Assembly (NCBI GenBank): GCA_027923505.1
Contig: BROI01000013.1
Span: forward strand, 248,001 to 312,000
Source: Mayamaea pseudoterrestris
Lineage: Eukaryota
DNA: 64,000 bases
Direction: 5' to 3'
Part shown: positions 1-36,512 of the stretch, piece after piece
How the letters are laid out: every line of letters starts with the position of its first letter
How positions within the stretch are numbered: position 1 is the first letter of the stretch
Made by a program: the position numbers and the translations under genes
The notes under the pieces: model-generated
Databases searched by the model: none
The model's input: the letters and a program-made list of their open reading frames with translations, nothing else
What the model was told of the DNA's origin: nothing

Positions 1-450
1 GATGCGTGTCTCATGCATTGCATGGTGACAGGCAAGTCATTGGAAGGAGTTTTGTCATTTGTCAACCAGACGCCTGTCGACTGGCATTGCAAACTCCAGG
101 CTACAGTCGAGACTGCGACCTTCGGATCGAATTCGGCGTAGCAAAGAGTGGAAACGGATATCAGCATTTCTCCGTGCGTCGCTCATGGCTATGGGCGTAC
201 CATTGGAAGTCTGCCTGGATGTACGACAACCAAGCAGTGATTACGCAATCTACAATCCCGAGTTCGACATTGTCCAAGCGACACAATGCGTTGGCCTACC
301 ATCGTGTTCGTTGGGCAGTTGCTGCGATATCAAGTTTGTGAAGTTGAGGAAAGGAGAACATTGCGGACGTACTTACGAAGTACCTGCCGTCGATGCCATT
401 GCTCAAGCCAGTATTGTTTTGGCGCGCGAACATCGTATGCGATTGTGAAG
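1..450 (+). mobile_element. Decayed Ty1/copia (CoDi-like) pol C-terminus, RNase H region, frameshifted
   Basis: Across shifting frames it reads W-H-C-K-L-Q-A-T-V-E-T-A-T-F-G-S / E-F, DNQAVITQSTIPSSTLSKRHNALAYHRVR and NIADVLTK. These are copia RNase H motifs, broken by several indels. Confidence 0.85.
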
Positions 451-483
451 GACAAGAATGCGGCTACGACGAGCAGCGTACCC

Positions 484-802
484 GAGGGGAGTGACAAGTC
501 GCAGAGCGGCGAAGTCAAGAGCCCGAACCCTAATTAGCTTGTGTCGAGTCCGCAGCTGTCGTATGTGACATGTGACTGAAGAAAGTGCGCAACCGTCGTG
601 TGGATGCGTTGTATGAATGGAACGACCAGTTACGACTGATGTAATGTGATTGAAAGAAACGGATTGATCGGATGATCTTCCGAGTGGTCGATGTAGAGAT
701 GTAGCGATAAGCTCACAATATAGAACTACTAGTTTGCGACGAGAGTGCAGTCGTATTCGTGTAGTGGCGAGCGCAAGACTATTCGACGAGCCATCTCCAT
801 CA
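484..802 (+). mobile_element. Polypurine tract and probable 3' LTR of the first copia element
   Basis: GAGGGGAG (484-491) is followed immediately by TGAC at 492. The end at TCA (802) is inferred only from TGA...TCA symmetry. Confidence 0.5.
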
Positions 803-885
803 AGAGCTGTACAGACCATGGCCAAGGACCCTGTATCGGAGCTTTTTGGAGGTAAGACGTTGACTGCGAAATCGTCAACGGTGTT

Positions 886-1455
886 AATCTTAATGGTACA
901 CGAGACAAAGGCATGATTATTCACCCTTCGGATGATCTGCAGCTTGATTTATATGCGGATGCTGATTTCGCTGGATTATGGAATGTGGAAGACATTGAAG
1001 ACCCCATTTGCGTCAAGAGTCGGACGGGGTATGTGGTTACGCTTGGAGGCGCTCCAATACTCTGGGCTTCAAAATTACAGTCAGAGATTTCGTTGAGTAC
1101 AACGGAAGCCGAGTATATAGCCTTGTCTCAGGGAATGCGCGAGTTGTTACCGATTCGCCGAATTGTCAAGTTGGTGGCTGATTCGTTTGGCATCGATAGG
1201 AACGAAGTTTCGAAAGTCTGTAAGGTTTGGGAAGACAATAATGCGGCGCTCTTATTAGCGAATTCTCCGTACCCGAACATGCGACCACGAACAAAGCACA
1301 TTGCAATTAAATATCATTGGTTTCGCGAGCATCTTGTTGCTGGTGAGATCGAGGCTGAGAAGATTGATACGACAGTACAGAAGGCAGATATCTTTACCAA
1401 GGCCCTTGGATTTGTGGAGTTCGAGCGCAAGCGCGAGTTGTTGGTTGGTTGGTAG
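886..1455 (+). mobile_element. Ty1/copia RT end plus intact RNase H (second element, 5'-truncated)
   Basis: LNGTRDKG-MII...LYADADFAG...SRTGYV...WASKLQSEISLSTTEAEYIALS...EDNNAA...RTKHIAIKYHWFRE...QKADIFTK. No integrase or RT core is present upstream. Confidence 0.93.
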
Positions 1456-1499
1456 TTTAGTGTTTTGTTCACGGTGGCAAGCTGCAGTTTCCTTTGCTT

Positions 1500-1720
1500 G
1501 AGAGGGAGAGTGAAACAAGATTGAAAAGTCGGCGAGAAAATGTTGGGTACCAGCGGGCTACGTGAACGGACTACGGACAGACGATGACTTCGGCGCGCCT
1601 CTCGTTTGAGGTGCGGCTGCTTTCGAGGCTCAGTTGCTGGATGCATGGACTCTGATAGTCTGTCGTTCTTTAACAGTATAAAGCATTAGTAGTTGCAATT
1701 GTATTTTGTGATTACATTCA
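1500..1720 (+). mobile_element. Polypurine tract and probable 3' LTR of the second copia element
   Basis: GAGAGGGAGAG (1500-1510) lies 45 bp after the pol stop and is followed by TGAA at 1511. The TTCA end at 1720 is tentative. Confidence 0.55.
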
Positions 1721-2901
1721 CTATTGGTAGGAAGTTGCCGAAAAGACAAAGGCCATTTTGTTGCTGCCGTAAGTGACATGGCTGCTGCGACTGTCTTCCA
1801 CAATATCAGAGGCCGCAATATGCTCAAATGTCAGCGCGGGTGACGAGAGGTTGGAGAAGAGTTCCCCACCTGCAGTCTCCAAAACGCTGGGATGAGAAAT
1901 AGTCATGGTGGATTGTTCGATCGCTCGGCAATGAGGACGCTTAAGTGTGAAGTCTACTAGTAGTGTGAAATGGAAATACGCCGGTCGTGTGAAAACCGCA
2001 CAAAGATTCCAGTACTCCGCTGCGACCACCATGGAAGATACTCCGTTGATGCGGCTGCATGACAGGGAGACAAAATGAGCGCCAGAGAGTACGTCATCAG
2101 AACATTCCGTGACACCATCGCATGAAAGTGCACCATCCACTGACGCAAATTCTGAATGCATTGCTCTTCTCCACGCGGCCCCTCAGCATCCAGGGACGCT
2201 GCTGCGTACACTCGTTGACGTCGTTATTCTGCATGTTTGTGTCAGCAAGGGGCCATGGCGAGTGCGTTCTGCAAGCAAATTCCCAAGGTGTGTCCTAAAT
2301 CTTTCGTCGTGAAATTTTGCCGCATCAACCACCTTGTTTTGTACTGCTCAAAGCAGTTCTCCATTGGCATGTTTTAGTCTTGATATGCTCTCTGCTAGGA
2401 TGCGAGTATTATGTAATACAGTTTTGACTGCTTTGTCGTTAGCACCACAATGCCCAGCTCACACTCCACGTGCAAACCAGCTGACAACATGTGAAAGTAT
2501 CCACCATCTGCCGCGATCAACTAGCATCCATAATAATCTGTACCTCCCGGTATTGCCGTGTTTGTCGAGTAGTAGTTGTCGCTACCATACTGCATCAGCA
2601 TAGGTCGTGCACACTTTCGTTGAAAGAACCGCGTGAATGGATCTTCGCCAGGCACCGCGCAAGGCAATTGTTGTCGTACCGGGAATGACGAAACGCGTCC
2701 ATCCGATGCTTGCCATGATGAAAGAGCCGTCCAGCGAGCAGCTTGCAAGTGGCGACAATCCACAGCAGAGCCAAAAGATAACGTATAGAGTAGTATCCTA
2801 CCATAGAATAAGAAAACAATATTCGTATCTTGTCCTTCTAGTTGTTTGCCCATTTGATCAACCGCCGCGGCCGCCGCCGCAGCATTAGCAGCAGCAGCAG
2901 C

Positions 2902-5184
2902 ATGCCAAACTTTGGAACGAAAAAGCAAAAGCAACGAACGAAGAAATCAGTTAAAACGACGTCTGCCCAAGCATCATCTTCAAAAGATCCATTCATGACA
3001 TGGGTTGATCGTCTAAGATTCGTTCCAGTTGCGAAAGAAGCCTTAGATCAAGAAGAAGCTGCAGCCGCAACAAACGATGACGAAACAATGAATGCTGCAA
3101 TGAATCAAGCCAACGAAGGGAACACAGTTTCCGTCAATGCCAACGACGAAACGACATCAAGACGTGATTCACTGTCCGTCGTTAGCTGGAACATGCTGGC
3201 CGAATCCTACTGCACGCCAAAGAGTCAGTCCAACCTTCCGCGCGAATATCGCAGCCAAGTCTTTGATCCAACGAGGCGACGCAAGCTCTTGTTCAAAACG
3301 TTGAACAAGTTTGTCATACGAAACAATGATGAATCAAAGACTTGCGACAGCAATTCTGACATGGACGATCCTGTAAATGCAGCAGCAGCTCACGTCATTT
3401 GTTTGCAGGAGGTGGACTTGTTCGACGTTAAGCAATACTTGGAGCGACACGGTTACATTGGTATTGAAACGCCTCGCACCAAGGGAGGCGGCGCGGGTGG
3501 ACGAGCCGATGCATGCACCTGCTTTGTTTATCAAAAGGAGTGGGAGATTGTCACGCATGAGCTGGTTCGATTGGATGACTTGGCGACGCTGGGAGTGCGG
3601 AATACTGCGACGAGAATGAATGATCGTGCAATAAATGGTTCATCACCGTCAGCAAGGAATGAAAGTAACGGCCAAAGCAACAATAACAGCAGCAACAACA
3701 ACCATAACAACAATCAACTGGAGGGACTGCAGCAAACCTTGTTGCGTCGCAACGTGGCCTTGCTCGTCCGCATACGCTCCATGCGAAACCCATGTCAAAC
3801 GTGTGTGATTGCCACGGCACACTTGTATTGGCATCCCGGCTACGAATACGTTAAATTGTGTCAGGCGCACTACGTGTTGATGCGAGCGAAAGCGTTTATG
3901 ACTGCAAATGACGAGCCGTTTATATTTTGTGGCGATTTGAATTCGCGGCCGCATGGAGCTGCTCACTCGTACTTGACCAAGGGAGTCATCAACGCCAAGC
4001 TGGTGGCGCCCTGGTACCATCAAGTACCCGTTGGAGAGGCGGCGCTGAGTCATGCTTGTGACGGAAGTTCGTACAACGAAAGTAATGCCGACGATGAAGA
4101 CGGAGGAGGCAGTGACTCGTCCAAGCAGCAGCAACACAATGTTGACGCACTGACCGAACGCATGGCGCGAGAATTATCCATTTACGACGACGACAGCCCA
4201 GACAACTCGCAACGAATGCAAGCTACCGTTAGATACTGCCTCGACAATACGCTCAACAAACTATGTCGCTGGCTCCGCATACTTGGACAGGATGCCGCGC
4301 TGGAGACGGATGTCGAGGAACGTTTGCGAACGCAACAAGCCGTCTACAGCATTTTCGATCGATGCAGAGAGGAGCGACGGACGCTGGTGACAACCTCGCG
4401 TCGCATGCTGTCGCGCCGTGACTGTCCACCGGGTGCGTACTGTCTCAGTCCAAAGCTGTTGAACAATTTGGAAGTGGCACTGGTGCATTTGCTGCTGACG
4501 CATGGAGTAATGCTTGAGCCAACCAAGTTCTTGTCGCGCTGCGTTGTTTGCAACGGATCCATTGTCGAGGTTCACGACGCGAGTGAAAAGAAGCGAATAC
4601 TGGATTCATATGATGCGCCGTCCAATCTGGTGGATGACCACATGGAGGTGTACGAATGCGACGGTTGTCGGCAAGGCTACTGGTGGTGTGATCAACCGAC
4701 CAGTTCGGCATCAAGAGTTAAGAATGCCGCGTCGAACATGTTTCAGCTTTGTCTTCGCGCCGGAGTACCATGCGCGGATGAATTGGGCATGTTTGACTTT
4801 GTGAACGTAAAAGCGGAGCGAGATCAAGGTTGGGATGCGAGTCGACCGGCTAGTGAAGTCCTCGAGCAACAGCTAATGGTTGTAGACTGGCTAAAAGATG
4901 AACGATTGGCATGCCCCATCCAATTAACTAGTGCCTATTCACAGCACGACAAGAGCAGTAAAAATGGTTTGACGGAGAGCATACCCTTTACAAATGTGAC
5001 AGACACCTTTGTTAACGTCCTTGACTATATTTTCTATAACGCGTCACTCACAGTGGTCGAGAAGCTTTCGATTCCAACAAGCTTTGCCGAACTCAACTCG
5101 AATAGTATTCCACAAGGACATTTACTTCCATCGGATATCTGGCCTAGTGATCATCTTGCAATCGGAGCCAGATTCATTTTGTAG
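2902..5184 (+). CDS. EEP-family (CCR4/Angel/nocturnin-like) nuclease/phosphatase with an inserted Mut7-C RNase and zinc-ribbon domain
   Basis: EEP motifs SWNMLA, CLQEVD, ATAHLYWHP, CGDLNSRP, LDYIFY and PSDHL. Between GDLN and LDYI lies YCLDNTLNKLCRWLRILGQD...FLSRCVVCNG...YECDGCRQGYW. First ATG at 2902; no intron needed. Confidence 0.88.
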   Translation: MPNFGTKKQKQRTKKSVKTTSAQASSSKDPFMTWVDRLRFVPVAKEALDQEEAAAATNDDETMNAAMNQANEGNTVSVNANDETTSRRDSLSVVSWNMLAESYCTPKSQSNLPREYRSQVFDPTRRRKLLFKTLNKFVIRNNDESKTCDSNSDMDDPVNAAAAHVICLQEVDLFDVKQYLERHGYIGIETPRTKGGGAGGRADACTCFVYQKEWEIVTHELVRLDDLATLGVRNTATRMNDRAINGSSPSARNESNGQSNNNSSNNNHNNNQLEGLQQTLLRRNVALLVRIRSMRNPCQTCVIATAHLYWHPGYEYVKLCQAHYVLMRAKAFMTANDEPFIFCGDLNSRPHGAAHSYLTKGVINAKLVAPWYHQVPVGEAALSHACDGSSYNESNADDEDGGGSDSSKQQQHNVDALTERMARELSIYDDDSPDNSQRMQATVRYCLDNTLNKLCRWLRILGQDAALETDVEERLRTQQAVYSIFDRCREERRTLVTTSRRMLSRRDCPPGAYCLSPKLLNNLEVALVHLLLTHGVMLEPTKFLSRCVVCNGSIVEVHDASEKKRILDSYDAPSNLVDDHMEVYECDGCRQGYWWCDQPTSSASRVKNAASNMFQLCLRAGVPCADELGMFDFVNVKAERDQGWDASRPASEVLEQQLMVVDWLKDERLACPIQLTSAYSQHDKSSKNGLTESIPFTNVTDTFVNVLDYIFYNASLTVVEKLSIPTSFAELNSNSIPQGHLLPSDIWPSDHLAIGARFIL

Positions 5185-5231
5185 ATTGAGAAGTGGTTGA
5201 AATTTTCATGTGACTTACGTAAAACACTGAA

Positions 5232-7617
5232 CTATGATGTAGCCATCGCGTTCCACTGAGCTGCATAAAGCGAATATTGGGGTCCACGAGCAAGTAGTTG
5301 GTTGTGCGTTCCAGATTCCATTGCAGCGCCATCCTTTAACACAACAATTCGATCGACGAACCGTCCTGTAGCCCATCGATTGGAGGCAATGACAATCGCA
5401 GCACCAGTTCGACGCAACTCTTGAAGCAAACGAGCTTCGTCAACCTCCGAAAAATGAGCTGTGGCGTCGTCGAGGAGCAGAATAGATCCAATCAGGCATT
5501 TATCTATGCTGTCGCCGCTGCTGGCAGAGTTATCATTGTCATATATCGCTTGTGCAAGTACTCTTGCCAGCAGTAGCTTCGACCACTCGACTGGCGAAAG
5601 CAGCACCGACCGTGGACGCAGTGAAGATGGTCGTAGATCCTCTTCAACCGCAGTAATAATCGTTGATAGTTTTGATGGAAGTCGGGGTATCAAGGATGCG
5701 TACAAGCCCGTGATTTTGAGTCCAAGTATCATCGCGTTGCGAGCTGCTTCAGGACTCCTTTTTAAACTGGTAGGTTCCAATATTTCTTCTATGGACATTC
5801 CGCTGAAAGCTTTTGATACAGCAGACAAGGTTTGAACATCGTTCAATAGCAAGCCTAACCGCCGGCGAAGTAGACGCTTGTCCCATTTACTTGTCTCTAC
5901 GCCACACACAATTGTCGTTCCTCTGACCCGAGTTGCTGATAACGCTTCGCGCGGTGGATCAACCATCGCTTCAGCCAATGTTGTCAGCAGCCGAGTCTTT
6001 CCGGAGCCTCCTTCGCCAAACAACACAACAATCTCGGAATTTTGAACGTCTAAGCTAACACCTCGTACAGCCCAAGCTCTTCTGGTTGTATGCGCGGCCC
6101 AAAGATCTTTTACGGTCAAACCTGCCAATGGGTTAATTGCTGCCTGCAGCTCTAAAGTACGCTGCGATTCCTTTTCGTGGTTTCTAGATTGAACTGCATT
6201 CCTAATTTTTGCAATGAATGTGGCGATATAGGCTTCGGCTTCTTTGGCGACGACTGCTGATGACAAGGCTTGTCAGCAGTTGATGAGTGTACAGCAGAAT
6301 AATTGAAACGTCAAGTAACGAGTCCCAGCGAATTCGTGTGGCGTCGGTGGACCCCAACGGAGCAATCCCTCCAAATGCAAATGCAATGACAGGCGCAAAA
6401 AGGAGCAATCCAGAAAGAATATTGTAGACAACAATTCGAATGAAGGAAGCACTGGATAGAGCATGAGCAAACTCGTGGTCTTGGGGTAGCATCAATCGCC
6501 ACCGCTCGAGACCTGATTCAATCGCAGACATTTCGCTGAGTGCACAAAGGCGCGTACCGCTGGAGCTACCAAGATCCTCCAAGCTTTCAGTGAGCCTGGA
6601 ATGCATATGAGCCGCCTCAACTTCTTCATTGTCGCTACTTGACGCGGGGAGAAATTTCTGCGTTTTCTCAATTCTCGGCGGCACGTACGGCCGCTACTCA
6701 TTACTCAAGCACCGCAAACTTGTAGCAACAATCACAGGATCATCCATCATCCGCTTGACCGATTGCATTAGCATTGAAAACTTGTTTCTTGTACAAGGTA
6801 TCTCTGGCGTTCACAAAAAGGTATGCTACACTGGCCGCAAGTGAAGCTCTTCAATACTCAGAATCGAAGTGATGAATAACGACCTTGGCGAGCGACTGAC
6901 GAATGGCGACGGTCATGGCAACCAGTGTTGCGAGGAAGCGAAAGCACAAAGGAACGAGACGCGAGACAAGAACTTTTCATTACTTGTAACGTAACCTGCT
7001 GCATATTTGTCGTCATTTGCTGATCAACTGGCGTGCCCATGTACAACCGCAGAAAGAGCGATCCGGTGTGCCTCATTCACAATGGATGTGGAAACGTCGT
7101 CACACAGAAGATTGACATAGCCTGCTTGAATAGCTCGCTCGTTTTGCTTGCGAGGAAAATAACCTTAAGTGCAAAAGGCAACCAGCCATTCATAGATGCA
7201 ACGATCATGTTAAACAAGGCAGGCTGGCTTCGAAAACAAGCTCGCTCCATGAAAAGGCAGGGCAAAATTTCCCGGCCGTGTCTCTCGCACAACAACCATT
7301 ATTCCACATGGGACCAGCAAGTCAAGAGCCGCCAGCATCCACCCAATCGTCCCACCTCTTCAGCTTATCATCCTTGGACAGAAGAGTAGTGCTTTTCCCA
7401 TTCCCACAGCAGCTGCATCAAATCCTTGAGAAGTTGTGGCATCGCGGCAATGCTTCGTCTTTGTCAGACTTTGAGGTTTGACAACAATGGATAATGAGTT
7501 GATTTTTGGTCTACTACCGCTCGCCCAACCAAACATTTTTGACATGAAACCTTTCAGTTGATCGTCATCTACCGCATTCAAAGGTCCAAGCTGTCGTCGA
7601 TGGGTGTTTCTTGTCAT
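5232..7617 (-). pseudogene. ABC transporter-like gene: intact degenerate NBD (5232-~6250), N-terminal/TM region broken by frameshifts
   Basis: Walker A GEGGSGKT, ILLLDDAT and C-terminal IVVLKDG..ESGTHNQLL are present. Hydrophobic segments are scattered over several frames between 6270 and 7617. This could be real decay or sequencing indels. Confidence 0.6.
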
Positions 7618-7701
7618 ACTCGATGCAGCAATTCTCTTCTAAGCGCGTACAACTGCGGAAATTGTCTTCCGAGTCGTGTTGCCCCATGTGTTTCTTGATG
7701 A

Positions 7702-8874
7702 TCATCTGTCAAAACCTGCTAGTGATGCGCTGAATCCCGTGTGCTCGGAGAAAAAGCGTCGCGTAGCATGTCGTATCGTTGTAAACCTGTCAGAGCTTCT
7801 GCGTCCATTTCGAGCAGACCAGATGACTTTCTTGTAGAACAGTGCGAGAAATTCGATCGTCGGCCGTGACCACTTCTCGGTCAGCCGCATTTCCCTGCAG
7901 TTCCGTTCGCGCGTTCCTTCTCGATGTGAGCAGTAGCGCCTTCCTTCGTATCGCGTTCGCAATCGTTGGTAGACTTCGCGTCAGTCCATCGTCTTCTTGA
8001 ACTGCTGTACTGCGAGTGATGCAGACGGAGTTCGACAGTGCGTGAGAAAGGTCCTGTATACAAACACATTCTTCTTTGCATACGCCTTGTGTTCTTTCGG
8101 TCCCTTCCTTCCTTCGGGTCATAATCGTCGTCAAAAGACTTCGTGGAAGTCATGCAATGTAGCGATGACTTTCAACTCGGAAATCCACTGTTTCCACGAG
8201 GAATCCAGCTTCATTTCTTTACAATCCCTCGCCGAGAACTTGATAGACTTCGTAAATTGGTCTGAATACTTCTCGTCGTCTTCGTCGTCGCCGAGGTCCA
8301 GTACGGATGTCGTTGGCTGCTTCGTCACGTCCACACTCGTCGGTGGCACCTTGTCGGCCGAGTCAGGCTTCGACTCGTTGCCTTCGTTCGTTAGCGTGGA
8401 GTCCTTGGATTCGTCCTTCTTGGATTCCGTTTCGCTTTCCTTCGCTGGAGTTTCGCTCCGCTTCCGCTGCCCACGCTCGCAATGTTGCGCTGCTTGGACT
8501 CGTTCCTTCGCTCGTGCTGTGACGAACGTCGCCAGCGTTTCCGGTGGTCAGTTGCGACCATGTCTTGATGTCCGGCGACTCTGCGCCAAATACCATTCGA
8601 TCGCGTTCGTGATCGTGCGTTGTTTCATCTTCGTTAGCGAGTGTTCGCTCGTTTCCTGCGTGACATTGTCGCCATCGTCAGTCGTCGTCGTTGTCGTCGT
8701 CGTGACGTTCCACTTCGTCGCGAAATCGTCGTACTCCATCTCGATCAGTTGCGTAAGCGATTCTACTCCGAGTTCGTCGAATAACTCCTTGAACTGAGGA
8801 TCTTGGAAAACGCCTACGTTCTCTTCGTAAACATGCGCAAACGCCGCGTCTTTCTGCGCGCGAGTTTCCGCCAT
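7702..8874 (-). mobile_element. Frameshifted gag-like ORF of an LTR retrotransposon (CoDi-like), 3'-truncated
   Basis: ATG at 8874 (MAETRAQKD...). Segment FTKSIKFSARDCKEMKLDSSWKQWISELKVIATLHDFHEVF-DDDYDP resembles diatom copia Gag from memory. It lies just downstream of an LTR-like sequence. Confidence 0.6.
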
Positions 8875-9015
8875 CGTTGTCGTCGTGACAATGTTCTTGC
8901 TATCACCTGCGGAACTTTCCGGGCCAAGAACCAACGTGCGTCCACGTTACTTCGTAAATCAATAGTACTCTTCGTCGATAAAGTCTCTATGCCGAGGCAA
9001 TGAGTCTCAAGACAG

Positions 9016-9339
9016 TGTTAATCTTGTAACTTGTAAATCAAATCGTTGCACCTTTCGCTTGTAGCTGTCCTTGGATGGCCAATCCAAGCTTGCAGTTGCT
9101 ACAATACGAGAGACGAATAAATCGCTTTCTTAACTCTTCAAGCTTAGTAAGTCTGCTTGTTTCTACTCTATATCGCACTAGTTTCAGCAATATACTTGTT
9201 GAATCGCTTCGAAGCCGTCGCTGCCACGCATCACGCGATCGTGAGGCTGTGGTGAGCCGCGAGTGCCGCTGTGTCACCCTATCGGACATTCGGTGTGACT
9301 TGCCCGATTTTCGCTGTTTTCGTTCGCATCCTGCAAACA
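9016..9339 (-). mobile_element. Probable 5' LTR (~324 bp)
   Basis: On the minus strand it starts TGTT(TGC) at 9339 and ends (TT)AACA at 9016. It is CpG-rich, abuts satellite sequence abruptly, and lies about 140 bp upstream of the gag-like ATG. Confidence 0.55.
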
Positions 9340-9598
9340 TTGCAGTATACTGAGACACCAGCTAGGCATACCATCTTGTAGCGCAGACTTATAATGATGT
9401 TGGCACCATTCTGGTCTGATTTGGGTGTATACCTGGCATGTTTTATGGGAAATTGAATGTCCAGGCATCTGTGGGCTGAGACTGGTGAGAACTTCTCACC
9501 AGTCACATTGGCAGTCTACTAAGGCACCCACCTGAAACACCATCTTGTAGCGCAGATGGCATAATGATGTGGCACTATTCTGGTGTGACTTTGGGTGT
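9340..9598 (-). repeat. About 1.5 diverged, inverted copies of the 169-bp satellite A
   Basis: CTGAGACACCAGC..ACCATCTTGTAGCGCAG..ATAATGATGTTGGCACCATTCTGG is the reverse complement of the A monomer. Confidence 0.9.
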
Positions 9599-10306: not shown

Positions 10307-12302
10307 TTGGATCATCACAAAAATCCCAACTGAAACTTTGCTGTGTTTGGCAAATGGAACACCCTACTTGTTTCAGTCTCAGTCACACCACAGCCACTGC
10401 CAGAATTGCTGCTGTTTTCAAGTTCCATGCCTTGGACCTTGTCAAGCACCCTCTGCGGATTGCAGTAGCAGGTTCGGATTCTTGGTGGCCAGGTTGCATC
10501 ACTATACAAATCCCATCTGAAACTTTGATGTGGTGGAACCACTTGGAGGAACCTACTTGCTGTATTCACGAACAAACACTGGCTGACTGGCTTCCAAATT
10601 GGAAAATCTCAACCTTTGACTTTGTCAAACATCTTATCCTGATTGCCATGGCATGCTCAGAATCATGCTAGCAAAGTTGGATCATCTCATAAATCCCAAC
10701 TGAAACTTTGCTGTGTTTGGCACATGGAACACCTTACTTGTTTCAGTCTCAGTCACATCACAGCCACTGCCGGAATAGCTGCTGTTTTCAAATTTCCATG
10801 CCTTGGACCTTGTCAAGCGCCTTCTGCGGATTGCAGTAGCAGGTTCAGATTCTTGGTGGCCAGGTTGCATCACTATACAAATCCCATCTGAAACTTTGAT
10901 GTGGTGGAACCACTTGGAGCAACCTACTTGCTGTATTCACGAACAAACACTGGCTGACGGGTTTCCAATTTAAAGCATCTCAACCTTTGAATCTGTCAAA
11001 CATCTTATCCTGATTGCCATGGCATGCTCAGTATCATGCTAGCAAGGTTTGATCATCACATAAATCACAACTGAAACTTTGTTGCGTTTGGCACATGGAA
11101 CACCCTACTTGTTTCAGTCTCAGTCACATCACAGCCACTGCCGGAATTGCTGCTGTTTTCAAAGTTCCAAGTTTTGGACCTTGTCAAGCACCTACTGTGG
11201 ATTGCAGTAGCAGGTTCAGATTCTTGGTGGCCAGGTTGCATCACTATACAAATCCCATCTGAAATTTTGACATTGTGGAACCTACTTGCTGTATTCATGC
11301 ACAGCCACTGGCTGACTGGCTTCCAAATTGGAACATCTCAACATTTGACTTTGTCAAACATCTTATCCTGATTGCCATGGCATGCTCAGAATCATGCTAG
11401 CAAGGTTGGATCATCACATAAATCCCAAATGAAACTTTGCTGTGTTTGGCACATGGAATAGCCTACTTGTTTCAGTCTCAGTCACACCTCAGCCACAGCC
11501 AGAATTGCTGCTGTTTTAAAAGTTCCAAGCCTTGGACCTTGTCAAGCACCCTCTGCGGATTGCAGTAGCATGTTCAGATTCTTGCTGGCCAGGTTGCATC
11601 ACTGTACAAGTCCCATCTGAAACTTTGACATTGTGGAACCTACTTGCTGTATTCGCTAGCACTGCTGCTGGCTTCAAAGTGGACTTCTTTCAATTCTGTT
11701 AGGCGCTCAGAATCAGAAGGTTGGTATCTCAACTGAAACTTTGCTGTGTTTGGCACATGGAACACCCTACTTGTTTCAGTCTCAGTCACACCTCAGCCAC
11801 TGCCAGAATTGCTGCTGTTTTCAAAGTTCCAAGCCTTGGACCATGTCAAGCACCCTCTGCGGATTGCAGTAGCAGGTTCAAGATTCTTGGTGGCCAGGTT
11901 GCATCACTATACAAATCCCATCTGAAACTTTGACATTGTGGAACCTACTTGCAATATTTACGCATGAACACTGGCTGACTGGCTTCCAAATTGGAACATC
12001 TCAACCTTTGACTTTGTCAAACATCTAATCCTGATTGCCATGGCATGCTCAGAATCATGCTAGCAAGGTTGGATCATCACATAAATCCCAACTGAAACTT
12101 TGCTGTGTTTGGCACATGGAACACCCTACTTGTTTCAGTCTCAGTCACATCACAGCCATTGCCAGAATTGCTGCTGTTTTCAAAGTTCCAAGTTTTGGAC
12201 CTTGTCAAGCACTCTCTGCAGACTGCAGTAGCAGGTTCAGATTCTTGGTGGCCAGGTTACATCACTATACAAATCCCATCTGAAACTTTGACGTGGTAGA
12301 AC
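10307..12302. repeat. Satellite B block 1 (371-bp unit, with ~358-bp variants), about 5-6 copies
   Basis: Recurrent GATTGCCATGGCATGCTCAGAATCATGCTAGCAAGGTTGGATCATCACATAAATCCCAACTGAAACTTTGCTGTG. One unit near 11650-11730 is degraded. Confidence 0.95.
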
Positions 12303-15300
12303 ATGGTATGCTTTGCGGGTGTCTCAGGTAATGGCAATGTATTTGGTGACAACTTGTCACCAGTCTCAGCCAGCAGATGGTGTGACATTCAAACGCACCT
12401 ACAGCAAGCCTTGTAGGTGCCCATATCACACCAGAATGGTGTCAGCATCATTATTCAGGCTGCGCTACAAGATGGTAGGTATGGCGGGTGTCTCAGGGGA
12501 TGGCAATGTTTTTGGTGACAACTTGTCACCATTCTCAGCCGCAGATGCCGTGACATTCAAACGCACCTACAGCAAGCCCTGTAGGTGCCCAAAATACACC
12601 AGAATGGTGCCAACATCATTACAGGCTGTGCTACAAGATGGTAGGCTTGGCTGGTGTCTCAGGGGATGGCAATGTATTTGGTGACAACTTGTCACCAGTC
12701 TCAGCCCGCAGATGCCGTAAGTTTCAAACGCCCCTACAGCAAGCCCTGTAGGTGCCCAAATACACCAGAATGGTGCCAAAATCCTTATTCAGGCTGTGCT
12801 ACAAAAATGGTAGGCATGGCTGGTGTCTCAGGGGATGGCAATGTATTTGGTGACAACTTGTCACCAGTCTCAGCCCGCAGATGCCGTGACATTCAACCCC
12901 CCTACAGCAGGCCCTGTAGGTGCCTGAATTACACGAGAATGGTGCCAACATCATTATTCAGGCTGCGCTACAAGATGGTAGGCTTGGCTGGTGTCTCAGG
13001 GGATGACAATGTATTTGGTGACAACGTGTCACCAGTCTCAGCCCGCAGATGCCGTGACATTCAAACGCCCCTACAGCAGGCCCTGTAGGTGCCCAAATTA
13101 CACCAGAATGGTGCCAACATCATTATTCAGGCTGCGCTACAGGATGGTAGGCTTGGCTGGTGTCTCAGGGGATGGCAATGTATTTGGTGACAACTTGTCA
13201 CCAGTCTCAGCCCGCAGATGTCGTGACATTCAAAGCCCCTACAGCAAGCCCTGTAGATGCCCAACATACACCAGAATGGTGCCAACATCATGAATCAGGC
13301 TGCGCTACAAGATGGTAGGCTTGGCTGGTGTCTCAGGGGATGGCAATGTATTTGGTGACAACTTGTCACCAGTCTCAGCCCGCAGATGCCGTGACATTCA
13401 AACGCCCCTACAGCAGGCCCTGTAGGTGCCCAAATTACACCAGAATGGTGCCAACATCCTTATGCAGGCTGCGCTACAAGATGGTAGACTTGGCGGGTGT
13501 CTCAGGGGATGGCAATGTATTTGGTGACAACTTGTCACCAGTCTCAGCCCACAGATGCCGTGACATTCAAACGCCCCTACAGCAAGCCATGTAGGTGCCC
13601 AAACCACACAAAAATGGTGACAACATCATTATGTAGGCTGCGCTACAAGATGGTAGGCTTGGCGGGTGTCTCAGGGGATGGCAATGTATTTGGTGACAAC
13701 TTGTCACCAGTCTCAGCCCGCAGATGCCGTGACATTCAAACGCCCCTACAGCAAGCCCTGTAGGTGCCCATAATACACCAGAATGGTGCCAACATCCTTA
13801 TGCAGGCTGCGCTACAAGATGGTAGGCTTGGCTGGTGTCTCAGGGGATGGCAATGTATTTGGTGACAACTTGTCACCAGTCTCAGCCCGCAGATGCCGTG
13901 ACATTCAAACATCCCTACAGCAAGCCCTGTAGGTGCCCAAAATACACCAGAATGGTGCCAACATCATTATTCAGGCTGCGCTACAAGATGGTAGGCTTGG
14001 CGGGTGTCTCAGGGGATGGCAATGTATTTGGTGACAACTTGTCACCAGTCTCAGCCCACAGATGCCGTGACATTCAAACGCCCCTACAGCAAGCCATGTA
14101 GGTGCCCAAATCACACCAGAAATGGTGACAACATCATTATTATGGCTGCGCTACAAGATGGTAGGCTTAGCTGGTGTCTTAGGGGATGGCAATGTATTTG
14201 GTGACAACTTGTCACCAGTCTCAGCCCGCAGATGCCGTGACATTCAAACGCCCCTACAGCAAGCCCTGTAGGTGCCCATAATACACCAGAATGGTGCCAA
14301 CATCATTATTCAGGCTGCGCTACAAGATGGTAGGCTTGGCTGGTGTCTCAGGGGATGGCAATGTATTTGGTGACAACTTGTCACCAGTCTCAGCCCGCAG
14401 ATGCCGTGACATTCAAACACCCCTACAGCAAGCCCTGTAGGTGCCCAAAATACACCAGAATGGTGCCAACATCCTTATTCTGGCTGCGCTACAAGATGGT
14501 AAGCTTGGATGGTGTCTCAGGGGATGGCCATGTATTTGGTGACAACTTGTCACCAGTCTCAGCCCGCAGATGCCGTGACATTCAAACGCCCCTACAGCAA
14601 GCCCTGTAGGTGCCCAAAATACACCAGAATGGTGCCAACATCCTTATTCAGGCTGCGCTACAAGATGGTAGGCTTTACTGGTGTCTCAGGGGATGGCAAT
14701 GTATTTGGTGACAACTTGTCACCAGTCTCAGCCCGCAGATGCTGTGACATTCAAACGCCCCTACAGCAAGCCCTGTAGGTGCCCAAAATAAACGTTATGG
14801 TGACAACATCATTATTCAGGCTGCGCTACAAGATGGAGGCTTGGCTGGTGTCTCAGGGGATGGCAATGTAATTGGTGACAACTTGTCACCATTCTCAGCC
14901 CGCAGATGCCGTGACATTCAAACGCCCCTACAGCAAGCCCTGTAGGTGCCCAAAATACACCAGAATGGTGCCAACATTATTATTCAGGCTGCGCTACAAG
15001 ATGGTAGGCTTGGCTGGTGTCTCAGGGGATGGCAATGTATTTGGTGACAACTTGTCACCAGTCTCAGCCCGCAGATGCCGTGAGTTTCAAACGCCCCTAC
15101 AGCAAGCCCTGTAGGTGCCCAAAATACACCAGAATGGTGCCAACATCATTATTCAGGCTGCGCTACAAGATGGTAGGCTTGGCTGGTGTCTCAGGGGATG
15201 GCAATGTATTTGGTGACAACTTGTCACCAGTCTCAGCCCGCAGATGCTGTGACATTCAAACGCCCCTACAGCACGCCCTGTAGGTGCCCATAATACACCA

Positions 15301-18300
15301 ATATGGTGCCAACATCCTTATGCAGGCTGCGCTACAAGATGGTAGACTTGGCTGGTGTTTCAGGGGATGGCAATGTATTTGGTGACAACTTGTCACCAGT
15401 CTCAGCCCGCAGATGCCGTGACATTCAAACGCCCCTACAGCAAGACCTGTAGGTGCCCAAAATAAAACAGAATGGTGCCAACATCATTACTCAGGCTGCG
15501 CTACAAGATGGTAGGCTTAGCTGGTGTCTCAGGGGATGGCAATGTATTTGGTGACAACTTGTCACCAGTCTCAGCCCGCAGATGCTGTGACATTCAAACG
15601 CCCCTACAGCAAGCCCTGTAGGTGCCCATAATACACCAGAATGGTGCCAACATCCTTATGCAGGCTGCGCTACAAGATGGTAGGCTTGGCTGGTGTCTCA
15701 GGGGATGGCAATGTATTTGGTGACAACTTGTCACCAGTCTCAGCCCGCAGATGCCGTGACATTCAAACGCCCCTACAGCACGCCCTGTAGGTGCCCATAA
15801 TACACCAGAATGGTGCCAACATCCTTATTCAGGCTGCGCTACAAGATGGTAGACTTGGCTGGTGTCTCAGGGGATGGCAATGTATTTGGTGACAACTTGT
15901 CACCAGTCTCAGCCAGCAGATGCTGGAACATTCAAATGCCCCTACAGCAAGCCCTGTAGGGGCCCAAAATAGGGCCAACATCATTTCAGGCTGCTTGTGC
16001 AAGATGGTTGTTTCAGGGGATGGCAATGTATTTGGTGACAACTTGTCACCAGTCTCAGCCCGCAGATGCCGTGACATTCAAACGCCCCTACAGCAAGCCC
16101 TGTAGGTGCCCATAATACACCAGAATGGTGCCAACATCCTTATGCAGGCTGCGCTACAAGATGGTAGGCTTGGCTGGTGTCTCAGGGGATGGCAATGTAT
16201 TTGGTGACAACTTGTCACCAGTCTCAGCCCGCAGATGCCATGACATTCAAACACCTCTACAGCAAGCCCTGTAGGTGCCCATAATACATCAGAATGGTGC
16301 CAACATCCTTATTCAGGCTGCGCTACAAGATGGTAAGCTTGGATGGTGTCTCAGGGGATGGCAATGTATTTGGTGACAACTTGTCACCAGTCTCAGCCCG
16401 CAGATGCCGTGACATTCACACGCCCCTACAGCAAAACCTGTAGGTGCCCAAAATAAAACAGAATGGTGCCAACATCATTACTCAGGCTGCGCTACAAGAC
16501 GGTGGGCTTAGCTGGTGTCTCAGGGGATGGCAATGTATTTGGTGACAACTTGTCACCAGTCTCAGCCCGCAGATGCCGTGACATTCAAACGCCCCTACAG
16601 CAAGCCCTGTAGGTGCCCATAATACACCAGAATGGTGCCAACATCCTTATGCAGGCTGCGCTACAAGATGGTAGGCTTGGTTGGTGTCTCAGGGGATGGC
16701 AATGTATTTGGTGACAACTTGTCACCAGTCTCAGCCCCCAGATGCCGTGACATTCAAACGCCCCTACAGCAAGCCCTGTAGGTGCCCAAAATACACCAGA
16801 ATGGTGCCAACATCATTATGCAGGCTGCGCTACAAGATGGTAGGCTTGGCTGGTGTCTCAGGGGATGGCAATGTTTTTGGTGACAACTTGTCACCAGTCT
16901 CAGCCCACAGATGCCGTGACATTCAAACGCCCCTACAGCAAGCCATGTAGGTGCCCAAATCACACCAGAAATGGAGACAACATCATTATTCAGGCTGCGC
17001 TACAAGATGGTAGGCTTGGCGGGTGTCTCAGGGAATGGCATTGTATCTGGTGACAACTTTTCACCAGTCTCAGCCCGCAGATGCCGGGACATTCAAACGC
17101 ACCCACAGCAAGCCCTGTAGGTGCCCAAAATACACCGGAATGGTGCCATCATCATTATTCAGGCTGCGCTACAAGATGGTAGGCTTGGCTGGTGTCTCAG
17201 GGAATGGCAATGTAATTGGTGACAACTTGTCACCAGTCTCAGCCCGCAGATGCCGTGAGTTTCAAACGCCCCTACAGCAAGCCAGAATGGTGCCAAAATC
17301 CTTATTCAGGCTGAGCTACAAGATGGTAGGCTTGGCTGGTGTCTCAGGGGATGGCAATGTATTTAATGACAACTTGTCACCAGTCTCAGCCCGCAGATGC
17401 CATGACATTCAAACGCCCCTACAGCAAGCCCTGTAGGTGCCCATAATATACCAGAATGGTGCCAACATCCTTATGCAGGCTGCGCTACAAGATGGTAGGC
17501 TTGGCTGGTGTCTCAGGGGATGGCAATGTATTTGGTGACAACTTGTCACCAGTCTCAGCCCGCAGATGCCGTGACATTCACACGCCCCTACAGCAAGACC
17601 TGTAGGTGCCCAAAATAAAACAGAATGGTGCCAACATCATTATTCAGACTGCGCTACAAGATGGTGGGCTTAGCTGGTGTCTCAGGGGATGGCAATGTAT
17701 TTGGTGACAACTTGTCACCAGTCTCAGCCCGCAGATGCCGTGACATTCAAACGCCCCTACAGCAAGCCCTGTAGGTGCCCATAATACATTAGAATGGTGA
17801 CAACATCCTTATGCAGGCTGCGCTACAAGATGGTAGGCTTGGCTGGTGTCTCAGGGGATGGCAATGTATTTGGTGACAACTTGTCACCAGTCTCAGCCTG
17901 GCAGATGCTGACAGTCCGCACCCTACAGCAACCTGGTCCAATCCACACCAGAAATGGTGACAACATCTTATTCGGGCTGCGCTACAAATGTGCTGCGGGT
18001 GTCTCAGGGAATTGTATTTGGTGACAACTTGTCACCAGTCTCAACCACAGATGCCGGGACATTCAAACGCACCTACAGCAAGCCCACTTGTGGTGCCCAA
18101 AATCACCAGAATGTCTACATCAGCTGCGCTACAAGATGGTAGCTTGGCGGGTGTCTCAGGGGTTGGCAATGTATTTGGTGACAACTTGTCACTCCTGCCG
18201 GGACATTCATTCCCTCAGGCTCGCTTTGGTATTTTGACACTTTCTCCCCAATTTCAAACCCCTCATTGGACAACGTGCCTCTTTTCTACATGTATTGCGG

Positions 18301-27300: not shown

Positions 27301-27422
27301 CAAAATACACCAGAATGGTGCCAACATCATTATTCAGGCTTTGCTACGAGATGGTAGTCTTGGCTTGTGTCTCAGGGGATGGCAATGTATTTGGTGACAA
27401 CTTGTCACCAGTCTCAGCCCGC
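12303..27422. repeat. Satellite A main array (169-bp unit), about 89 copies by length
   Basis: Monomer GGTGTCTCAGGGGATGGCAATGTATTTGGTGACAACTTGTCACCAGTCTCAGCCCGCAGATGCCGTGACATTCAAACGCCCCTACAGCAAGCCCTGTAGG... The ORF track repeats every 169 bp (20486, 20655, 20824, 20993). Confidence 0.98.
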
Positions 27423-30400: not shown

Positions 30401-30916
30401 ATTCTGATTGCCATGGCATGCTCAGAATCATGCTAGCAAGGTTGGATCATCACATAAATCCCAACTGAAACTTTGCTGTGTTTGGCACATGGAACACCCT
30501 ACTTGTTTCAGTCTCAGTCACACCTCAGCCACTGCCAGAATTGCTGCTGTTTTCAAAGTTCCAAGCCTTGGACCCTGTCAAGCACCTTCTGGGGATTGCA
30601 GTAGCATGTTCAACACGTGGTGCAGTTCATACAATCATGAAACTTTGCGTGGTGGAACCACTTCGAACCTACTTGCTTTCAGATGCAATTACTGTCTGCC
30701 ACTTGTCAACCATCTATCTGATTGTGCATGCTCAGAATATTTAGCAAGGTTGGATCATCACATAAATCCCAACTGACTTGCTGTGTTGCACATGAACACC
30801 TACTTTTTCAGTCTCAGTCACCTCTCCTCAGCCACTGCCAGAATTGCTGCTGTTTTTCAAAGTTCCAAGCTTGACCTGTCAAGCACCTTCGATGCTAGGT
30901 TCAGATTCTTGCTGGC
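27423..30916. repeat. Satellite B block 2, about 9-10 copies
   Basis: Same 371-bp monomer; ORF track spacing 29666, 30037, 30408. Confidence 0.95.
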
Positions 30917-30919
30917 CCT

Positions 30920-32800: not shown

Positions 32801-32809
32801 CTGCCAAAT

Positions 32810-35800: not shown

Positions 35801-36512
35801 AAACCCAACTGAAACATTGCTGTGTTTGGGCGCATGGAACACCGTACTTGTTTCAGTCTGAATTGCTGCTGTTTTCAAAGTTCCAAGCCTTGGACCTTGT
35901 CAAGCACCCTCTTCGGATTGCAGTAGCAGGTTCAGATTCTTAATGGCCAGGTTGCTTCACTATTCAAGTCCCATCTGAAACTTTGACGTAGTGGAACCAC
36001 TTGGAGGAACCAACTTGCTATATTCACCCATGACCACTGGCTGACTGGCTTCCAAATTTGAACACCTCAACCTTTGATTTTGTCAAACAGCTTATCCTGA
36101 TTGCCATGGCATGCTCAGAATCATGCTAGCAAGGTTGGATCATCACATAAATTCCAACTGAAACTTTGCTGTGATTGGCACATGGAACACCCTACATGTT
36201 TCAGTCTCAGTTGCACCTCAGCCACTGCCAGAATTGTTTAAAGTTCCAAGCCTTGCATTTTGTCAAGTACCCTCTGCGGATTGCAGTAGCAGGTTCAGAT
36301 TCTTGGTGGCCAGGTTGCATCACTATACAAGTCCCATCTGAAACTTTGACGTGACGGAACCACTTGGAGGAACCTACTTGCTATATTTATGCATGACCAC
36401 TGGATGACTGGCTTCCAAATTAGAAAATCTCAACCTTTGACTTTGTCAAACATCTTATCCTGATTGCCATGGCATGCTCAGAATCATGCTAGCAAGGTTG
36501 GATCATCACATG
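32810..36512. repeat. Satellite B block 3, about 10 copies
   Basis: ORF track spacing of exactly 371 (34268, 34639, 35010, 35381, 35752). Confidence 0.95.

What the first reader, a model, noticed from the sequence alone, without database searches (positions are those of the whole stretch)
2902..5184. Mut7-C (PIN-like, Zn-ribbon) domain inserted inside a CCR4/Angel-like EEP nuclease
Seen: the EEP catalytic motifs are complete but split, with a Mut7-C-like module (~4225-4760; LDNTLNKLCRWLRILG, CVVC...CDGC, YW) sitting between GDLN and LDYI/SDH. Established: eukaryotic Mut7-C normally follows a DEDD exonuclease (MUT-7/EXD3, small-RNA and transposon silencing), and EEP proteins of this class are deadenylases or 2',3'-cyclic phosphatases. 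Inference: this is a distinct RNA 3'-end-processing enzyme, possibly for small RNAs. The usual LLTRD motif reads LVTTS, so the insert may bind RNA rather than cut it.
Basis: partly seen in the sequence, partly recalled or inferred. Interest (0 to 1): 0.7.

Follow-up and report, generated by a model that had tools for sequence, protein, structure and literature searches.

The report
Diatom CCR4-like enzyme carrying Mut7-C insert
A real, conserved gene of diatoms and related algae encodes a CCR4-type RNA-end enzyme with a zinc-bound RNA-gripping domain, otherwise known from the worm silencing nuclease MUT-7, plugged into a surface loop; it looks like an unstudied branch of RNA 3'-end trimmers.

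Summary
Observation confirmed. Window 2902-5184 (+) is one open frame of 760 aa. A Pfam Mut7-C domain (E 4e-19) sits between the GDLN and LDY/SDH parts of a CCR4-clan EEP domain. An AlphaFold model (pLDDT 81, pTM 0.82) closes the two EEP parts into one fold (Z 32-34 to CNOT6L, nocturnin, PDE12, ANGEL2). The architecture is a family: 77 of 120 listed homologues carry both Pfams, including transcript-derived proteins. It reaches beyond diatoms to Mallomonas and many unnamed eukaryotes. The insert is the most constrained part (dN/dS 0.03 versus 0.22 for the EEP core, from two genomic copies). The genome has separate CCR4, PDE12 and nocturnin genes, and this is its only Mut7-C found. The EEP scores closest to plant CCR4-4 (HESPERIN-like) and CCR4, but the tree leaves its sister open. 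Best reading: a Mg-dependent 3'-5' RNA trimmer whose non-catalytic Mut7-C arm grips RNA, converging on MUT-7/EXD3 with a different catalytic fold (0.55). Corrections: LxTTS is the family norm, MUT-7 also lacks that Asp, and 'PIN-like' is doubtful. Nothing ties it to small RNAs specifically. Databases auto-annotate it; I found no paper describing it.

The parts
2902..5184 (+). Whole gene, single open frame, 760 aa (P0001): EEP-N / Mut7-C / EEP-C
2920..2955 (+). Basic N-terminal patch (aa7-18), possible nuclear signal; weak inference
   Evidence: 40 of 55 aligned rows with a start Met and W motif have 4 or more K/R in 8 residues; no control run
3001..3027 (+). Conserved WVD..F.P segment (aa34-42) that precedes and packs on the EEP domain
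   Evidence: W34 in 60 of 69 rows; structural alignments to CNOT6L, PDE12 and ANGEL2 start at aa30-33
3163..4014 (+). EEP domain, N-terminal part (aa88-371): N97, E170, H307-x-x-W310-x-P312 / K318 / Q321, D345, N347; includes an Asn-rich variable loop aa229-274
4015..4227 (+). Low-confidence, variable linker (aa372-442)
   Evidence: 13% mean identity to homologues; pLDDT under 50 at aa376-404; GD-to-D448 distance 31-175 aa across 28 fusion rows
4228..4521 (+). Mut7-C N-terminal subdomain (aa443-540), receiver/TOPRIM-like; D448, R459, D464, E491, R493, T497, S499, R505
   Evidence: Pfam; profile hit to MUT-7 CTD 8Q66, E 3.8e-6; receiver-domain matches Z 6.2-7.0; 63.6% mean identity
4522..4767 (+). 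Mut7-C Cys4 zinc-finger subdomain and closing helix (aa541-622): C547, C550, C586, C589, W594
   Evidence: each Cys in 68 of 69 close rows and 20 of 20 distant rows; Zn binding inferred from 8Q66 (PMC11347159)
4768..4917 (+). Helical return segment (aa623-672) leading back into the EEP fold
4918..5181 (+). EEP domain, C-terminal part (aa673-760): LxSAY, FTN (N698), LDY (D708), PSDH (D750, H751)

Best explanation
The protein is a member of a separate branch of the CCR4 clan of EEP hydrolases, widespread in diatoms and other algae. The two EEP parts fold into one active site. SHOWN by model and conservation: intact fold and full catalytic set N97, E170, D345, N347, D708, D750, H751. INFERRED from CCR4, HESPERIN and PDE12: it removes nucleotides 3'-to-5' from single-stranded RNA ends, Mg-dependently, probably oligo/poly(A). 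The Mut7-C domain is inserted into the variable loop after the GDxNS helix (SHOWN). It works as a non-catalytic, zinc-stabilised, basic arm that holds the RNA upstream of the 3' end and so raises affinity, rate or substrate choice (INFERRED from MUT-7/EXD3). The same helper domain has thus been joined to two unrelated nuclease folds: DEDDy in MUT-7, EEP here. Bulk mRNA deadenylation is probably left to the separate CCR4 gene, so a specialised substrate is likelier. My rough split, with no data: structured stable RNAs 40%, selected mRNA tails 35%, small RNAs 25%.
For: Catalytic set: N97, E170, H307, D345, N347, D708, D750 and H751 each kept in 20 of 20 distant fusion rows. In 69 close rows H307, D345, N347, D708, D750, H751 are invariant, N97 is in 64 and E170 in 67, the rest gaps. 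Model pLDDT 81, pTM 0.82 aligns over 277-309 residues to CNOT6L, nocturnin, PDE12 and ANGEL2 at Z 32-34, rmsd 2.1-2.9. A profile of fusion EEP columns only ranks insert-less proteins: plant CCR4-4-type 279-288 bits, own CCR4 270, fungal CCR4 235, own PDE12 186, weak Angel-like 123, nocturnins 120-122. The W-x-P...K..Q signature is shared with CNOT6L, yeast CCR4 and CCR4-4; PDE12 has R for K. HESPERIN needs E114, D287, D346, H385 (PMC9063446), which match E170, D345, D708, H751 by motif. MUT7-C raises RNA affinity 6-8 fold and speeds degradation in MUT-7 and EXD3, binding weakly alone (PMC11347159). In the insert, R459 and R493 are kept in 20 of 20 distant rows, R505 in 19, and 453 is always K/R, while E472 and E473 vary (10 and 5 of 20). 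Insert dN/dS 0.03 (3 N, 28 S) versus EEP core 0.22 (23 N, 28 S), Fisher p 0.0012. Separate CCR4 (L005, E 4.5e-46 to CNOT6), PDE12 (L009, E 5.6e-42) and nocturnin (L010, E 3.8e-28) genes exist.
Against: No biochemistry exists. The shared catalytic set does not fix the reaction: nocturnin has it yet is an NADP(H) phosphatase (PMC9063446 passage), and ANGEL2 is a cyclic phosphatase. Foldseek ranked ANGEL2 first (E 4.9e-16 versus 5.3e-15 for CNOT6L), and the single-sequence search ranked PDE12 first. The tree does not resolve the sister group. AU tests did not reject a union with CCR4-4-like (p 0.30), CCR4 (0.14), PDE12 (0.07) or the weak Angel-like L008 (0.45), and only marginally with nocturnin (0.047). 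A reciprocal search with plant CCR4-4 ranked the own CCR4 (L005) above this gene, partly because the insert splits the match. That the insert is more conserved than the catalytic domain could also mean catalysis or a tight partner.
Confidence: 0.55

Rival explanations
1. It is an ANGEL-like RNA end-healing phosphatase. The EEP site removes 2',3'-cyclic or 3' phosphates from cleaved RNAs (tRNA halves, rRNA fragments), and Mut7-C grips the RNA.
For: Foldseek top hits are ANGEL2. The AU test does not reject a union with L008, whose best PDB hit is ANGEL2. No convincing Angel gene was seen among the 14 EEP matches in the genome; L008 is weak (E 1.7e-12, one stretch).
Against: The fusion profile scores CNOT6L, CCR4 and PDE12 above ANGEL2 (220-211 versus 206 bits, a small gap) and L008 far below CCR4-4 (123 versus 288 bits). 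W310 is invariant, where ANGEL has Tyr (recalled, not seen in a call).
Confidence: 0.17
2. The EEP is a 3'-5' RNase, but the insert mainly docks a partner protein or localises the enzyme, as MUT-7's CTD binds MUT-8, rather than binding RNA.
For: [quoted passage not shown] The insert is the most constrained part. Most diatom homologues add a conserved Cys-rich tail (82 of 97), hinting at further interfaces.
Against: In MUT-7 the partner surface is a nematode-specific insertion between the Cys pairs. Here that gap is only 35 residues (C550-C586) and variable in sequence.
Confidence: 0.12
3. A two-site cut-and-trim enzyme: Mut7-C is itself a metal-dependent endonuclease, and the EEP then trims or heals the new 3' end.
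For: D448, E468 and E473 are in 69 of 69 close rows and D464 in 68; D448 is in 19 of 20 distant rows; dN/dS is 0.03. Archaeal Mut7-C has been predicted to be an active RNase (PMC4075521 passage).
Against: S499 (20 of 20) stands where prokaryotic forms are recalled to have Asp. E472 and E473 are not kept in distant rows. Only the first acidic residue is conserved family-wide (PMC5499597). Isolated MUT-7 and EXD3 CTDs served as negative controls in RNase assays.
Confidence: 0.09
4. It is a nocturnin-like metabolite phosphatase (NADP(H) or similar), with the insert regulatory.
For: Structural Z to nocturnin (33.5) is tied with CNOT6L (33.9).
Against: The genome has its own nocturnin, L010. It gives the lowest profile scores, AU p 0.047, and the HLKA motif of L010 and P0285 is absent.
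Confidence: 0.05
5. Artefact: the insert is an intron, a mobile insertion, or a fused gene model.
For: No RNA data for this organism could be examined.
Against: Continuous frame in both genomic copies with strong purifying selection in the insert. The same architecture occurs in transcript-derived proteins: MMETSP P0090 and P0229, and a TRINITY ORF P0218. The EEP cannot be completed without the part after the insert.
Confidence: 0.01

Closest known systems
Plant CCR4-4 / AtHESPERIN-type EEP deadenylase (CCR4-4 = HESPERIN is recalled; primer-encoded motifs in PMC9063446, read by eye, fit P0290/P0291)
   Same: Highest-scoring insert-less relatives (279-288 bits, 33-34% identity on core columns); same H-x-x-W-x-P...VK..Q motif and catalytic residues; no LRR.
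   Different: No Mut7-C (GD-to-FTN distance 49-61 aa). It forms its own supported clade (97/97) that excludes the fusion rows; sister status is not shown.
CCR4 / CNOT6 / CNOT6L deadenylases
   Same: Fold (Z 33.9, rmsd 2.8, 309 residues); best PDB profile hit; same signature motif.
   Different: No LRR detected by Pfam; about 250-residue insert where CNOT6L has a loop of about 24 residues (chain 278-302); the genome has a separate CCR4, L005.
MUT-7 / EXD3 / Nibbler (DEDDy exonuclease + MUT7-C)
   Same: Homologous Mut7-C with Cys4 zinc finger (E 3.8e-6 to 8Q66; Z 7.6, rmsd 4.1, 152 aligned), lacking the Asp of the recalled TRD motif.
   Different: Catalytic domain is EEP, not DEDDy. Mut7-C is inserted inside the catalytic domain rather than appended at the C-terminus. 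It lacks the long nematode insertion between the Cys pairs.
ANGEL1/2 2',3'-cyclic phosphatases and PDE12
   Same: Same clan and fold (Z 32.2-32.3). PDE12 shares HLYWHP with P0001.
   Different: Lower profile scores; a separate PDE12 exists in the genome; neither has Mut7-C.
Oomycete Mut7 (tRNA-editing domain + DEDDy + Mut7-C; PMC5499597)
   Same: A stramenopile protein bearing Mut7-C.
   Different: Different catalytic domain. In this genome the tRNA_edit + DEDDy protein (L028) shows no Mut7-C; its orthology to the oomycete protein was not tested.

Membership tests
CCR4 clan of EEP hydrolases | EEP fold closest to CNOT6L/PDE12/ANGEL/NOCT | tested here: met
   Z 32-34 for these four, next 25.3; Foldseek ranks 1-16
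CCR4 clan of EEP hydrolases | Catalytic N, E, D-x-N, D, D-H residues | tested here: met
CCR4 proper (CNOT6/Ccr4) | Orthology to CCR4; LRR for CAF1 binding in animals and fungi | tested here: not met
   No LRR (the own CCR4 L005 shows none either). L005 is the genome's CCR4 and groups with fungal CCR4, not with the fusion rows. A sister relation is not rejected.
CCR4-4 / HESPERIN group | Nests in, or is sister to, the CCR4-4 clade | tested here: inconclusive
   Best profile score; not nested; sisterhood not rejected, p 0.30
ANGEL | Nests with Angel; Angel-specific active-site residues | tested here: inconclusive
   No reliable Angel sequence in the tree; union with weak L008 not rejected; lower profile score
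PDE12 | Orthology to PDE12 | tested here: not met
   L009 is the genome's PDE12 (E 5.6e-42) versus E 5e-10 for P0001; sisterhood p 0.07
Nocturnin | Orthology and HLKA motif | tested here: not met
Deadenylases (activity) | Mg-dependent poly(A) shortening | not testable with these tools
   needs an assay
Mut7-C domain (PF01927) | Pfam match above cut-off | tested here: met
   69.5 bits versus 23.3
Mut7-C domain (PF01927) | Four zinc cysteines and first-strand Asp | tested here: met
   C547, C550, C586, C589 and D448
Mut7-C domain (PF01927) | Fold like MUT-7 CTD (8Q66) | tested here: met
   Profile E 3.8e-6; structure Z 7.6, under the tool's caution line of 8, so supporting only
MUT-7/EXD3 family | DEDDy exonuclease domain (PF01612) before Mut7-C | tested here: not met
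   No PF01612 in P0001 at E up to 1
PIN-domain nucleases | PIN fold with 3-4 acidic active-site residues | tested here: inconclusive
   No PIN title in the 50 rows shown for the whole model; the single-domain model failed; only D448 is near-invariant family-wide

The most novel reading that the evidence does not exclude
This family is an ancient, undescribed RNA 3'-end enzyme of algae and protists that took over the Mut7-C arm. In diatoms, whose tRNA_edit-DEDDy protein lacks Mut7-C, it does MUT-7's job of trimming silencing small RNAs or their precursors with EEP chemistry. The unusually constrained Mut7-C may keep a cutting activity of its own, giving a cut-and-trim enzyme.
Probability: 0.2. 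Interest if true: 0.8.

Novelty: new variant of a known kind. Interest (0 to 1): 0.52.

Why it matters
Surveys describe eukaryotic Mut7-C as a C-terminal appendage of DEDDy exonucleases. Here it is inserted inside an unrelated nuclease fold and is more constrained than the catalytic domain. That gives an independent test of the 2024 proposal that MUT7-C's conserved role is RNA binding for a neighbouring nuclease. It also adds a branch to the CCR4 clan, beside CCR4, PDE12, Angel, nocturnin and CCR4-4, in a major phytoplankton group with genetic tools. Members of this clan have repeatedly shown unexpected chemistry, so the assay is open. It is a new arrangement of two known domains, already auto-labelled in databases, not a new kind of system.

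Tried and rejected
Expression: no RNA holder was listed for the gene. The four runs laid were contigs of unrecorded library type that also covered intergenic DNA and repeats and showed no joint inside the gene; they say nothing on splicing. Single-sequence AlphaFold of the insert failed (pLDDT 42) and was not searched. No prokaryotic Mut7-C was obtained (plasmid tblastn with P0216 gave no match), so the LLTRD motif and the origin of the insert are untested. A word-based search with the distant alignment A2 returned only 12 proteins and no further named taxa with both domains. The ESM Atlas put both P0001 and P0226 with one EEP/Mut7-C cluster (120 members, commonest Bacillariophyta) and had no structure. 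NCBIfam gave nothing above cut-off for 4 proteins. Earlier scan findings: none. The family's Cys-rich tail was not found in the window or the C9 locus nor in the genome with one 38-aa query (not proof of absence). P0003 was dropped as an independent homologue: it is letter for letter the C9 copy, though it is one of the 69 rows of A1. Neighbouring genes (Copia end, ABC-type gene) were rejected as functional context because this is a eukaryote. Complex prediction was not used. Literature searches for the architecture: 'Mut7-C'+'PIN', 'Mut7-C' (10 papers), Mut-7C/Mut7C/COG1656/DUF82/PF01927, EXD3/MUT-7 with stramenopile terms, CCR4+Angel+nocturnin+PDE12+phylogenetic. No listing pointed to an EEP-Mut7-C fusion. 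'EEP' occurs 0 times in the main text of PMC5499597, PMC11347159 and PMC4075521. Subscription journals are not covered.
Full report
THE OBSERVATION. Window 2902-5184 (+) is one open frame of 760 aa, P0001. Pfam finds Mut7-C at aa444-595 (E 4.3e-19) and Exo_endo_phos at aa161-356 (E 3.4e-10). The order is EEP-N (SWN 95, QE 169, HLYWHP 307, GDLNS 344), a variable linker, Mut7-C (LDNTL 447 to YWW 593 plus a helix to about 622), then EEP-C (FTN 696, LDYIF 707, PSDH 748). The window lies on contig C13 of G000, a 30.6-Mb eukaryotic genome that is a diatom by its homologues. A second copy lies on C9 in a 4.9-kb block that is 90% identical and includes part of the neighbouring ABC-type gene.

IT IS A TRANSLATED, CONSERVED ARCHITECTURE. 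The word-based search gave 139 hits and listed 120. Of these, 77 carry both Pfams (two of them are this genome's own copies), 24 Mut7-C only, 18 EEP only and 1 neither. The single-domain rows look like fragments: all 19 without Mut7-C still contain the RWLR start of the insert, and all 24 Mut7-C-only rows keep an EEP motif. Named members include Fistulifera, Amphora, Fragilaria, Attheya, Cyclotella, Stephanocyclus, Skeletonema, Conticribra and Thalassiosira. A profile search of 1.84 billion representatives listed 150. I scanned 29 of them that looked two-part and long: 27 had both domains and 2 had EEP only. One of those two, P0205, seems to have lost the insert and degraded the HLYW motif. 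Of 20 distant representatives looked up first, two had organism names: Mallomonas annulata and the euglenid Ploeotia vitrea; ten more look-ups named no further fusion taxon. The Ploeotia ORF carries an extra DUF4291 and groups with the Mallomonas-type rows (88/88), so prey contamination or transfer is possible and a range outside stramenopiles is unproven. Transcript-derived proteins P0090, P0229 and P0218 contain the insert, so it is not spliced out in those species. Between the two genomic copies the insert has 3 non-synonymous and 28 synonymous differences (dN/dS 0.03), the EEP core 23 and 28 (0.22), and loops 0.34; Fisher p 0.0012. This rests on one pair of sequences. Across the 69-row alignment A1 (near-full-length rows picked from the 120, including P0003) mean identity to P0001 is 61-64% in the insert, 46-56% in EEP segments and 13% in the linker.

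STRUCTURE. AlphaFold2 with A1 gave pLDDT 81 and pTM 0.82, with both domains mostly above 90. The two EEP parts close into one domain that aligns with CNOT6L, nocturnin, PDE12 and ANGEL2 at Z 32-34, tied; Foldseek agrees. The insert replaces a loop of about 24 residues in CNOT6L, between the helix after GDxNS and the LxSAY strand. The insertion point is the same in all 28 fusion rows aligned, with flexible spacing. The insert matches the MUT-7 CTD 8Q66 (Z 7.6, weak alone; profile E 3.8e-6), and its first subdomain matches receiver domains. That is what Busetto et al. report for MUT-7 CTD-N, where they found no PIN similarity (PMC11347159; I read parts 3 and 6 of 9, section 28 and passages).

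WHICH EEP. The genome gives 14 EEP matches. Among them L005 is CCR4, L009 PDE12 and L010 nocturnin by PDB hits; L008 is weakly Angel-like and L007 unclear. So the fusion is an additional enzyme. The nearest insert-less hit, P0280 from the jakobid Stygiella, led to plant 'CCR4 homolog 4' proteins. A profile of the fusion EEP columns scored 14 insert-less rows: CCR4-4-type plants 279-288 bits, L005 270, other CCR4-4-like 207-253, fungal CCR4 235, L009 186, L007 181, ngl2 157, L008 123, nocturnins 120-122. Trees used 262 EEP columns with the insert left out. With 42 of 45 rows (L013, L018, P0284 dropped) the fusion rows formed a clade at SH-aLRT 88 / bootstrap 61. With 35 rows (seven more dropped for speed) under LG+C20 they were one side of a branch at 88/84, with the long-branched L007 inside. 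One origin is plausible, not proven. The sister is open: AU p 0.30 (CCR4-4-like) and 0.14 (CCR4) with L007 held outside, and 0.07 (PDE12), 0.45 (L008) and 0.047 (nocturnin) with L007 free. No authentic Angel sequence was in the tree.

IS THE INSERT CATALYTIC. Family-wide constants are D448 (19 of 20 distant rows), R459, R493, T497, S499, four Cys and W594 (20 of 20); other acidic residues are fixed in diatoms but not beyond. MUT-7 likewise has no Asp at the TTS position. Matelska et al. note that only the first acidic residue is conserved (PMC5499597, passages). In MUT-7 and EXD3 the CTD binds RNA weakly, raises affinity 6-8 fold and speeds degradation. An RNA-gripping arm is therefore the likeliest role, but the very strong constraint keeps a catalytic or partner-binding role open.

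LINK TO SILENCING. The Pfam search of the genome finds Mut7-C only in the two copies of this gene (a lower bound, exon by exon). None of the seven PF01612 matches has Mut7-C in its frame. One of them, L028, has tRNA_edit + DEDDy, the layout of oomycete Mut7 in PMC5499597, but ends in a different, unassigned domain. Piwi-domain genes exist. This allows, but does not show, that the fusion replaces MUT-7. Nothing found singles out small RNAs.

MECHANISM, STEPWISE. Shown: one protein, a reconstituted EEP fold, a full catalytic set, a zinc-type Mut7-C in a surface loop, and purifying selection. Inferred from relatives: Mg-dependent 3'-5' hydrolysis at the EEP site, and RNA binding by Mut7-C. Guessed: the substrate class, and a nuclear location from a basic N-terminus (40 of 55 rows, no control).

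WHAT IS KNOWN. JGI pipelines label members 'Ccr4 / uncharacterized protein with PIN domain', and the ESM Atlas has an automatic cluster name for the pair, so the architecture is in databases. The 2017 PIN survey lists eukaryotic Mut7-C with RNase D-type domains. Its supplement, cut when stored, has a Phaeodactylum row labelled Mut7-C alone at residues 383-575 and no Exo_endo_phos hit for my terms; the unseen part could bear on novelty. Other papers: PMC4075521 passages, PMC6284557 passages, PMC9063446 part 1 of 6 and passages; the rest were search listings only. The searches named under Tried and rejected found no description of the fusion. That HESPERIN is CCR4-4, the ANGEL Tyr and the prokaryotic LLTRD motif are recalled.

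VERDICT. Real; a new domain arrangement defining an apparently unstudied branch of the CCR4 clan; works like MUT-7 in design but is not a member of that family. Novelty: new variant of a known kind. Interest 0.52.

Noticed in passing
homologues, e.g. last 40 residues of P0006 and P0007; absent after window 5184: 82 of 97 proteins with PSDH carry a conserved C-terminal H-x3-C-x-CGC-x-P...SLFEMAELRK tail, possibly a second zinc site plus helix, with no Pfam match. Both copies in G000 lack it.
   Followed up: partly
L028:1-2898 (+) (G000 C5): 966-aa frame with tRNA_edit + DEDDy exonuclease, resembling oomycete Mut7 but ending in an unassigned domain of about 285 aa instead of Mut7-C.
   Followed up: partly
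window 12303-27422, with flanks 10307-11646 and 27424-36511: 15-kb satellite of a 169-bp unit (about 89 copies) flanked by 371-bp arrays. The same 169-bp repeat lies near the C9 copy of the gene, and depth is extreme at 9243-9500 in run X1. Possibly centromeric or subtelomeric.
   Followed up: no
window 1723-6555 versus L033:1-4796: Duplicated block on C9, 90% identical, dS about 0.21, while CCR4, PDE12 and nocturnin each gave one match; suggests a segmental duplication or a retained divergent haplotype.
   Followed up: partly
window 1-1520: Looks like the end of a Copia-type LTR retrotransposon (RT/RNase H-like frame 856-1455, purine-rich tract near 1500). Read by eye; Pfam gave no real hit.
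   Followed up: no
window 7593-9053: Multi-copy element of about 1.5 kb: depth roughly 50 times the single-copy level in run X1; no Pfam hit for frame 7973-8794.
   Followed up: no
window 5232-6272 (-): ABC-type ATPase frame (PF00005, E 1e-6) ending 48 bases from the stop of the finding, tail to tail.
   Followed up: no
window 37172-62080: Ordinary genes by Pfam: bestrophin, ricin-type lectin domain protein (38830-40005), two PHO4 phosphate transporters, ferroportin, CTP transferase, homoserine dehydrogenase, NodZ-like, cNMP-binding protein followed by a kinase frame.
   Followed up: no
P0218; P0205: The Ploeotia member has an N-terminal DUF4291; P0205 is a relative that appears to have lost the insert and the HLYW motif but kept a Cys-rich tail.
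   Followed up: no
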